This document shows, piece after piece, positions 32,385 through 34,782 of a stretch of 64,000 nt of DNA. The notes beneath the pieces were generated by a model. That model worked only from the letters and a program-made list of their open reading frames with translations, made no database searches and was not told where the DNA came from. The stretch is from Saccostrea echinata (taxonomy: Eukaryota): contig NW_026889805.1 in the NCBI RefSeq assembly GCF_033153115.1, positions 20,026,001-20,090,000 on the forward strand. Direction: 5' to 3'. Positions within the stretch are counted from its first letter, which is position 1. The number at the start of each line of letters is the position of its first letter. Both the position numbers and the translations under genes were made by a program.

Positions 32385-34782
32385 GAGTATTAGCTTATCT
32401 GCTTTGTATATCGTAGTATAATGCTCTAGGAATGAATTATTATGAATACCAGTAAATGTAATGCGAGTTGTTGTTTTGTAACATGTAGACAAGATGAAGC
32501 TAACCCAGAAGAGGTACATGACGTATTACGTAATATCAAAATTTTGGCCATCAACGCGAAGAAGTATTTCAAAAAGAAGAAAATCTACCGTTATTACTGC
32601 GAAGAATTGATTGATAGGTGGATTCCAGACCTTAAAAGGGTTGGTTTGTAATGATTCATATATGTAGAAAGTAAATTTACAACATTAAATAATTGAAGGA
32701 CTATTCTTTACGTTACTATAAGTTAACACAGATGGTAATATGTAATTAAACTATCGTTCATATACATGTTTTTTGTACTGTAGCTGTTACGAATTTCCTC
32801 AAGGGAGGAAAAACGAAACAAGGAAAAGGCCGAAGCTGAGGAAGAAAATTTCCGTCAAGAGACAAACAGAGAGTTCCGAAATTTTAGCAAGGACTATAAT
32901 AGGTCAGTAAAATCTAGATCTACATTTATTTTGTAAACAACAATATGCAATTATATGAAAGGGGGAATTTGTAGTGAACCAATTAAATGAGAACAGAAAA
33001 AAAAAGAAAATTCAGAACTAGACATTTTCATTATTTAAAAGAGAGGAACTATGTGTTTGTAAATGTCATAATAAAAGTTTGAGGATTTCATTCTAAAACT
33101 AACTCTCAGGAAGAAAAAGGTGTCTGATGAGGCTATAATTTGGAAACAAAAGTATGAAGAAGAACTGGCTGAGCTGAGGAGAAGACACGAGGAGGAAATA
33201 TCTACACTGAAGAGGGAGCATGAGGCGGCAATGAAAAGGTTCTTAGTACAAGTGTTACATTGAAATGACATACATTCTATAACAGTTATAGATAAGCTTA
33301 ACTTGATAAAGTCTGAACTTTTAATGTAACACAAGAAATGAAGTTTATATATATTAGGGAAGAAATGATTGTAAAAAATTCTTTTATTCAAAACAATCAA
33401 GTCAATTGTTTGTATTCACATATTTATTTTGCAGATTGAAAGACGAAAAGGAAAAACTTCTGACGCGGTAATATTCTTTAAATGCATAAAATAATATATT
33501 TTTTAAGAAAAGGTTACTGAAATATCGGAGTTCCATTCTATCTGCTGGCATATTTTATGAAGGTTAAGCCAAGCAGCTGGAAACAAATTGAGGGAGAACA
33601 ACCCAGCCGTATCCGACCTCAGTGACCCTAATCGACCCCTGAAACTGTCAGAGAAGATCAGTGAACTGTATGATAATGAGTGGACAGACGCAATGGAAAT
33701 CCTGGAGGCGGATCGAGAAGAAAAGAAGGCGGTAGAGACACTTCTGCGTATAATTGTGGTGAGAATGGCTTCTCTGTTGTTATGAAGGTTATGCAGAAAT
33801 GGATTGTTTTTACATTCGAATTTACCTCTACCTGTTAGATTATATGAAATTTTCTGCTTTTTTTTCTCTTTTAGAAATGCTATGAGCTTTGCGAGAAATT
33901 TTCAAAGTCTCAGTTATCAAGTCTGAAAGGAGCTTGTTGGGGAGATAAAAATGTAAGTTGTTTCACTCCATATTCTGGTCATTCCTTATTTATTGCCGCA
34001 TGGATTATAGTAAATTACAAGTTTTACTTTCATTTTCAGAACGTTAAAGAGGGGGATTCTGTTCCTACGAACAAAGCCATAGAACTTAGAAAGGATATTG
34101 CATCCTGGATGATCAGTTCTTCTAGTCTCCCTCAGGTAATTTCTTTACTTTGATTTGGGGAGAGGTATCTTCAGTTTAGCAATGAATAATGTTTTTTTCT
34201 GTTTTAATTGCTTTACAAAGTTCAAAGTATAAACTGAAGTACAAAAGAAAAAATGTAGCATTAATACAATACACGGAAAATTCAAACGTTGAGAATAGTT
34301 ACATAAAGAATACATGTCGTGTGGAGAACAGAATTTGATATAAAACATTAAATAGCTTCGCATTATCCTAGTTCTTTTTGTCAAATATACTGCATCATTT
34401 TTTTATTTACATTATGATCACTTGTATTCTGTTCACCGACAAATAACTAAGTTTTTATCATTATTATTATCCAAAGATCTCTATATGTCTTTAGGCTATT
34501 TTGCAAGAAATAGAACAAGACATCGGGAAAGAAGATGCAAAGAAATGTGAACCTTATATCCAGAAGTGTGTGCAATATTGCTGGTTCATGTGTGTTCAGG
34601 ATCCCAACATGCATGTCGTGGTCTGGACCAGTGGGACTAAATTCGATAACAATGAAATGAAATCTTTCACAAAGATTGGACAGTACGTCGACTTCACAGT
34701 TTGGCCTGCTTTATACTTGCACAAAGATGGACCTTTGTTATCAAAGGCAATAGTACAAGGAACCAACCACGCTGTGGTGTAG
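31466..34782 (+). CDS. MIEAP/SPATA18-domain protein, paralogue 3 (396 aa)
   Basis: Exons 31466-31566, 32489-32639, 32784-32902, 33110-33238, 33435-33467, 33563-33758, 33875-33952, 34040-34135 and 34495-34782 sum to 1191 nt with an open frame. Exon-by-exon similarity to paralogue 4. Confidence 0.87.
31614..31628 (+). promoter_or_regulatory. IRF-element-like motif in intron 1 of paralogue 3
   Basis: CAAAACGAAAGTAGA, 48 nt into intron 1. An ETS-like ACTTCCTG also lies at 31455-31462, just before the ATG. Confidence 0.45.
31790..31910. mobile_element. Short hairpin MITE in paralogue 3 intron 1
   Basis: Inverted repeat CAGGGGTCCTGAGTCCATTAGT / ACTAATGGACTCAGAACCCCTG. Confidence 0.6.

What the first reader, a model, noticed from the sequence alone, without database searches (positions are those of the whole stretch)
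34600..34765. The MIEAP-like C-terminal domain reads like a GrpE beta head
Seen: all four paralogues share (G/N)xxF(D/N/R)xxxMxS(F/Y)TxxGxx(V/I)xFxVWPxxxLHxxGPLxxKxxV after a long coiled coil and a helical region. Known: GrpE is a long coiled coil, then a helical bundle, then a beta head with consensus GxxFDPxxHEA...GxVxxVxxxGYxLxxRxLRPAxVxV. Inference: motif order, spacing and overall architecture match, suggesting remote homology. This was judged by eye only.
Basis: inference. Interest (0 to 1): 0.72.

Follow-up and report, generated by a model that had tools for sequence, protein, structure and literature searches.

The report
GrpE-like MIEAP partner of orphan HSPA12
The end of this oyster "mitochondria-eating protein" (MIEAP) is predicted to fold like GrpE, the helper that resets bacterial and mitochondrial Hsp70; such genes often sit beside genes for HSPA12, an Hsp70 branch of unknown function, and the two proteins are predicted to bind, so MIEAP proteins likely are HSPA12's own nucleotide-exchange helpers.

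The parts
34633..34755 (+). GrpE-like beta-head motif of paralogue 3 (the finding); residues about 348-388 of P0003
   Evidence: motif match; model strands; GrpE top in fold searches
34495..34782 (+). last coding exon of paralogue 3: last helices plus beta head, with stop
   Evidence: (PF16026 40.8 bits); splice joint 34133-34493 in three runs
33564..33758 (+). exon for residues 179-243: end of the coiled coil, the most conserved loop (N191, L197, D199, R202) and helix 203-226; second predicted HSPA12 contact surface
31466..34782 (+). paralogue 3 gene, nine coding exons, 396 aa (P0003): basic N-tail, long coiled coil, MIEAP domain
8732..13151 (+). paralogue 1 (two conserved exons located; head motif 12483-12605; acidic C-tail); 5' exons not mapped
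25149..26466 (+). paralogue 2 (two conserved exons located; head motif 26305-26427); 5' exons not mapped
37019..43690 (+). paralogue 4 (head motif 42920-43042; long low-complexity C-tail)
   Evidence: spliced contigs
44283..46509 (-). HSPA12-type Hsp70 gene, four coding exons, 577 aa (P0017), tail-to-tail with paralogue 4 (stop codons about 0.6 kb apart); actin/Hsp70 nucleotide motifs intact
   Evidence: (PF00012 28.1 bits, cut-off 20.6)

Best explanation
The C-terminal head of these MIEAP proteins is predicted to have the GrpE beta-head fold, likely by common descent, and the proteins likely work as dedicated GrpE-type nucleotide-exchange partners of HSPA12-type Hsp70 ATPases such as the one encoded next to them. 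Shown: motif, gene structure, Pfam membership, genomic linkage in this oyster and operon-like pairing in bacteria. Predicted: head fold; a 1:1 contact in which the head (residues 354-362, 376, 381-387) and the conserved loop and helix (191-231) grip lobe IIB and neighbouring parts of the HSPA12 nucleotide-binding domain. Inferred by analogy with DnaK-GrpE: this grip opens the cleft, releases ADP and lets ATP rebind; the long coiled coil dimerises the protein and the variable N- and C-tails place each pair. My odds: shared ancestry with GrpE about 0.9; binding to an HSPA12 about 0.75; true exchange activity about 0.55.
Confidence: 0.6

Rival explanations
1. GrpE-derived HSPA12 partner, but not an exchange factor: it binds the nucleotide-binding domain as an adaptor, inhibitor or guard, in a stress or immune switch where the coiled coil and variable tails do the sensing.
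For: Linkage, bridge and predicted interface fit any tight partner. GrpE signature residues are replaced. Lineage-specific expansion (69 last-exon hits), patchy bacterial presence (3 of 301 and 5 of 55 genomes), GTPase neighbours in some operons and published Hsp70-GrpE genes in bacterial conflict systems (passages of PMC7159879) suit an immunity role.
Against: The best-determined contacts put the head on lobe IIB, where GrpE acts; HSPA12 keeps its nucleotide motifs, so a nucleotide cycle to regulate is likely. Exchange and signalling are not exclusive.
Confidence: 0.25
2. GrpE-derived fold that in animals has left HSPA12: it serves lipid binding and condensates as reported for human Mieap, or acts on canonical Hsp70; the linkage is a relic carried along by co-duplication.
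For: The probable SPATA18 orthologue is unlinked and two thirds of clusters are unlinked; Mieap paper passages assign the C-terminal structured region to phosphatidic-acid binding as a hypothesis; no canonical-Hsp70 control was folded.
Against: Linkage persists in eight deep lineages and in three gene orientations, which passive relics rarely do; the oyster pair itself passes the complex test; the predicted contact face is the most conserved part of MIEAP.
Confidence: 0.11
3. The resemblance to GrpE is convergence or chance in a small beta domain.
Against: Only GrpE chains stand above background in 48,161 chains; an independent family bridges both in register; and the neighbour is an Hsp70, GrpE's known target class.
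Confidence: 0.04

Closest known systems
GrpE / GrpEL1 / Mge1 (Pfam PF01025; PDB 1DKG, 3A6M, 4ANI, 9BLS) with DnaK or mortalin
   Same: Long helix, helical region, terminal beta head; head fold; gene next to an Hsp70; predicted head contact on lobe IIB.
   Different: No Pfam GrpE hit; signature residues replaced; larger helical region within one chain; variable tails; partner is HSPA12-type; dozens of paralogues; dimer state and exchange activity untested.
MIEAP family (PF16026); vertebrate Mieap/SPATA18; bivalve orthogroup OG24 (PMC8382680)
   Same: All four paralogues and 95 of 95 aligned relatives hit PF16026; bivalve expansion already published.
   Different: These are members of the bivalve expansion, probably not the SPATA18 orthologue; the passages read describe mitochondrial quality control and condensates and mention neither GrpE nor Hsp70 binding.
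HSPA12A/B-type Hsp70 (bivalve orthogroup OG10)
   Same: Neighbour P0017 is named HSPA12A-like by its source, passes PF00012, keeps nucleotide motifs.
   Different: A 2026 review states that HspA12 function is unknown and that no dedicated cytosolic GrpE was retained (passages of PMC13580251); no cofactor is named there.
Plant GIL1/IRKI C-terminal domain (PF24994) and unnamed fungal clusters
   Same: Nearest predicted structures after MIEAP itself, TM 0.68-0.77.
   Different: Leads from predicted models only; Hsp70 linkage in plants not examined.
Hsp70 + GrpE genes in GAP1-N2 GTPase-centred bacterial conflict systems (PMC7159879)
   Same: Non-housekeeping Hsp70 with a GrpE in an operon, near GTPases (passage).
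   Different: Described for actinobacteria and firmicutes; no MIEAP mention; whether it is the same Hsp70 clade was not tested.

Membership tests
GrpE (PF01025) | Pfam GrpE score above the curated cut-off | tested here: not met
   No PF01025 hit at E<=10 for the four last exons; P0003 hits only MIEAP at E<=0.1
GrpE (PF01025) | C-terminal beta-head fold preceded by a helix | tested here: met
GrpE (PF01025) | Long N-terminal helical stalk | tested here: met
   Helix 67-190, pLDDT above 90 over most of it; coiled-coil pairing inferred
GrpE (PF01025) | Head signature residues (invariant P151, H154, A156, G177, R186 in E. coli numbering of alignment A4) | tested here: not met
   Replaced in MIEAP; partly kept in the bacterial bridging family
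GrpE (PF01025) | Homodimer with a shared four-helix bundle, 2:1 on Hsp70 | not tested
GrpE (PF01025) | Binds an Hsp70 nucleotide-binding domain at lobes IB and IIB | tested here: inconclusive
   Model supports binding, 0.69 vs control 0.00, contacts at 290-318 (IIB by alignment) and 36-54 (IB inferred from position); a prediction only
GrpE (PF01025) | Accelerates ADP release | not testable with these tools
   Needs kinetics
MIEAP (PF16026) | Pfam MIEAP score above cut-off | tested here: met
   4 of 4 last exons, 40.8-58.3 bits vs 27; P0003 50.8 bits over profile 2-194
Mieap/SPATA18 orthologue | Being the genome's closest match to the vertebrate-type protein | tested here: inconclusive
   A gene at G000:C56:15.87 Mb has the highest summed PF16026 score (four exons, about 170 bits); no vertebrate sequence was in hand for a tree; its likeness to human SPATA18 is recalled, not tested
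Mieap/SPATA18 orthologue | Mitochondrial location, condensate formation, p53 induction | not testable with these tools
   Needs cells
HSPA12-type Hsp70 (neighbour) | Hsp70 domain with intact nucleotide motifs and HSPA12-like relatives | tested here: met
   PF00012 28.1 bits vs 20.6; motifs at 15, 191, 221, 248, 292, 390; named relatives HSPA12A/B-like

The most novel reading that the evidence does not exclude
HSPA12 and MIEAP form an ancient, second DnaK-GrpE-type module, shared by scattered bacteria, fungi, protists and animals and co-amplified in bivalves as a stress or immune switch; MIEAP proteins are the cytosolic GrpEs thought to be absent from eukaryotes, and human Mieap/SPATA18 is the exchange factor of HSPA12A/B.
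Probability: 0.35. Interest if true: 0.92.

Novelty: new variant of a known kind. Interest (0 to 1): 0.8.

Why it matters
A 2026 review calls HspA12 function unknown and says no cytosolic GrpE was kept in eukaryotes (PMC13580251, passages). A GrpE-derived partner gives HSPA12 its first candidate cofactor and a direct assay, gives the p53-induced protein Mieap/SPATA18 a testable biochemical role, and explains why two of the largest bivalve gene expansions (Hsp70 OG10, Mieap OG24), so far read as separate stress adaptations, rose together.

Tried and rejected
Sequence searches of the PDB with the last exon (0 hits at E<=10) and with profile A2 (86 hits, best 60 shown, coiled coils only, no GrpE among those shown). 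HHalign of whole alignments to GrpE found only coiled coil, probability under 5%; trimmed direct comparison not significant, with only 11 GrpE rows and no context pseudocounts. Full-length Foldseek: GrpE at ranks 2-7, 9, 10, E 0.07-0.3, below a COMMD-like protein at rank 1. HMMs of oyster MIEAP do not detect the bacterial partners as single sequences. The two later bacterial partners alone gave a weak MIEAP match (5 of 200 shuffles as high). No MIEAP-HSPA12 fusion in 153 proteins; in 24 long relatives only one B-box and coiled coils besides MIEAP. Co-divergence test borderline. Viral contigs held no GrpE relative. No RNA holder on record was listed; the contigs laid are RNA by guess only. A first Pfam scan missed the HSPA12 last exon; it was identified by homologue search. 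Ten paper searches gave no paper linking MIEAP/SPATA18 to GrpE or HSPA12 in the listings; structure classifications such as ECOD, CATH or InterPro could not be consulted and may already group the folds; no supplements were read.

Full report
1. The observation. The finding lies in the last coding exon (34495-34782, +) of a nine-exon gene (31466-34782) that maps exactly to a 396-aa protein, P0003, named by its source LOC133172903 of Saccostrea echinata. Three paralogous last exons begin near 12387, 26212 and 42785. Contigs of three runs from two studies, RNA by the tool's guess, skip the last four introns of this gene, and introns of paralogue 4 and of the neighbouring gene, at canonical ends.

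3. Sequence. Direct tests fail: no Pfam GrpE hit, no GrpE among PDB sequence hits shown, HHalign against 11 GrpE rows not significant (trimmed: 21 of 300 and 5 of 100 shuffles as high). A bridge succeeds. Bacterial HSPA12-like genes (section 4) have a downstream partner; a profile of 18 partner heads, collected by position and by their own HMM (one of the nine seed rows, L034, was left out because its end lies in a tail), matches GrpE at probability 95.4, score 43.8, 47 columns, and MIEAP at 87.9, score 32.9, 67 columns, with 0 of 300 column shuffles as high in each. As an HMM it scores 8 bits or more on 8 of 11 GrpE, 9 of 151 MIEAP and 0 of 120 HSPA12 proteins. Four of 11 partners have sub-threshold Pfam GrpE hits and one a weak MIEAP hit; the Atlas's nearest model to one partner is MIEAP, TM 0.73.

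4. The neighbour. An intact HSPA12-type Hsp70 gene (P0017, 577 aa; 46509-44283, minus strand) lies tail-to-tail with paralogue 4. I noticed this from the sequence before consulting earlier notes. In the genome, 69 MIEAP last-exon hits (75 matches less 6 further exons of the same genes) form 30 clusters at a 50-kb gap; against 116 HSPA12 first-exon hits (117 less one duplicate piece), 8 clusters lie within 10 kb, 10 within 20 kb, 11 within 50 kb. At 20 kb, random placement on the same contig (lengths taken as lower bounds) gives mean 0.66, maximum 6; local shifts of 0.1-1 Mb give 0.67, maximum 5; 20,000 draws each. Conversely only 10 of 75 HSPA12 clusters are linked. Both lists are lower bounds. 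C1q, another expanded family (150 of 695 candidates scored), has 0 of 104 clusters within 20 kb, 55 of them on HSPA12-bearing contigs. Two linked loci are 99.7% identical duplicates and two more share 96%, leaving eight lineages at 38-63% identity, among them the two deepest oyster branches in a rough tree of 47 of the 116 oyster hits plus 5 bacterial rows. Orientations include head-to-head, tandem and tail-to-tail. Against: the gene with the highest summed PF16026 score, probably the SPATA18 orthologue (C56:15.87 Mb; likeness to the human protein recalled, not tested), is 1.0 Mb from the nearest HSPA12 hit; co-divergence of eight pairs is borderline (rho 0.43, p about 0.05); no fusion in 153 proteins.

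5. Beyond the oyster. A scan of prokaryote genomes gave five HSPA12-like loci; order-level searches found the gene in 3 of 301 and 5 of 55 genomes, adding two full loci and one fragment without flank. All 7 full loci have a 370-460-aa coiled-coil partner directly downstream on the same strand. Of 80 metagenome loci (best 80 of 372), 23 have a partner at E<1e-4, all among the 51 with 900 bases of flank on a side; 12 by the bacterial profile, 11 by the oyster MIEAP profile; reversed decoys reach E 3.4 and 0.0032. Two of the 23 overlap the seed set and several low-GC loci are similar to each other, so these are not 23 independent cases; 28 of the 51 show no partner, many with one side cut short. 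Earlier notes of this scan report the same pairing in fungi (eight notes; two of them prompted the bacterial search) and the GrpE fold for another MIEAP cluster of this oyster, with binding untested. These are unchecked AI notes and are not counted as support.

6. Predicted complex. P0017 5-577 with P0003 140-393, folded by ESMFold2 without alignments: 0.71, 0.69, 0.69; best of three controls 0.00. The mark was reached by 51 of 78 solved and 2 of 108 mismatched microbial pairs, and by 39 of 65 and 2 of 126 eukaryotic ones; runs agree in at least 71% of contacts, partner pLDDT at least 81. Contacts: MIEAP 191-231 and head 354-362, 376, 381-387; HSPA12 24, 34-54, 141-145, 290-318, 345-350, 415-423. 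Residues 290-318 align with the lobe-IIB helix of BiP and DnaK; 36-54 as lobe IB is inferred from position. Published GrpE contacts are head to IB and IIB, short helices to IIB (passages of PMC10803776 and PMC11685456). The MIEAP face is strongly conserved (0.73 vs 0.43, p 5e-8), the HSPA12 face is not (0.58 vs 0.62). The pass may come from memory of solved DnaK-GrpE complexes, although identity to them is low and no HSPA12 structure is among the PDB hits shown; it does not say which paralogue binds, and no canonical Hsp70 was tested.

7. Mechanism. Shown: genes, motif, linkage. Predicted: head fold, contact site. Inferred: the head and helix 203-226 hold lobe IIB open so that ADP leaves; the stalk dimerises; variable tails localise each pair; paralogue pairs diversified in bivalves for stress or immune roles. 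It works like GrpE but is not a member of PF01025: score and signature tests were not met.

8. What is known. Seen as passages only: PMC13580251 (HspA12 function unknown; no cytosolic GrpE retained); PMC8382680 (Hsp70 OG10 68.1 vs 4.4 and Mieap OG24 53.1 vs 0.6 genes per species, both duplicated in the bivalve ancestor, read as separate stress families); PMC10845071 (Mieap condensates; 0 occurrences of grpe, hsp70, chaperone); PMC13149161; PMC12987570, a review of GrpE-like factors, 0 occurrences of mieap, spata18, hspa12; PMC11268181, 0 occurrences of the cofactor terms; PMC7159879 (Hsp70 plus GrpE in conflict systems); PMC8195603. Ten searches (listings seen) gave no paper making the link. 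Subscription journals, supplements and fold classifications were not seen; interactome or AlphaFold-screen supplements could hold a SPATA18-HSPA12 pair.

9. Verdict. Real and largely new in print: new variant of the DnaK-GrpE kind; interest 0.8; confidence in the exchange-partner mechanism 0.6. The scan has met the pairing before in fungi.

Noticed in passing
window 31499-31516 and 37046-37063 (+): Paralogues 3 and 4 and their oyster orthologues (9 of 9 proteins P0002-P0010; 3 of 148 distant relatives) carry R-S-x-S-L-P near the N-terminus, which fits the mode-1 14-3-3 binding consensus (recalled); possible phospho-control.
   Followed up: partly
window 43670-43690 (+): Paralogue 4 and its orthologues keep a C-terminal S-T-E-L after a fast-changing tail, like a class I PDZ-binding end (recalled).
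   Followed up: no
window 42782-45345: One contig of run X1 and one of X2 run through both the last exon of paralogue 4 and the last exon of HSPA12, suggesting overlapping 3' ends of the convergent genes; a contig across two genes shows no single transcript.
   Followed up: no
window about 52400-64000 (-): Many small exons with a repeated cysteine pattern and a threonine-rich exon (62958-63716); one exon has a weak chitin-binding CBM_14 hit (E 0.0097, below cut-off): possibly a peritrophin- or mucin-like gene.
   Followed up: partly
G000:C16:29.300-29.311 Mb (L014, L015) and its duplicate on C42: An intron-rich HSPA12 lies in tandem with a high-scoring MIEAP gene; unlike the four-exon expanded copies it may be the HSPA12A/B orthologue; orthology not tested.
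   Followed up: partly
L031:7304-9754, L111:972-2297, L107:185-877, L113:7180-7830: Bacterial HSPA12-partner operons are flanked by a dynamin-like GTPase, an AIG/MMR-type GTPase, a beta-flower protein or a radical-SAM gene, and often by a 450-680-aa unknown upstream gene, as in conflict systems.
   Followed up: partly
L138, L144, L146, L147, L150, L155, L157, L163, L168: Short contigs of about 3 kb holding just an HSPA12-like gene and a MIEAP-like gene tail-to-tail; eukaryote-like two-gene units.
   Followed up: partly
window 39400-41400: Repeats with high contig depth inside introns of paralogue 4.
   Followed up: no
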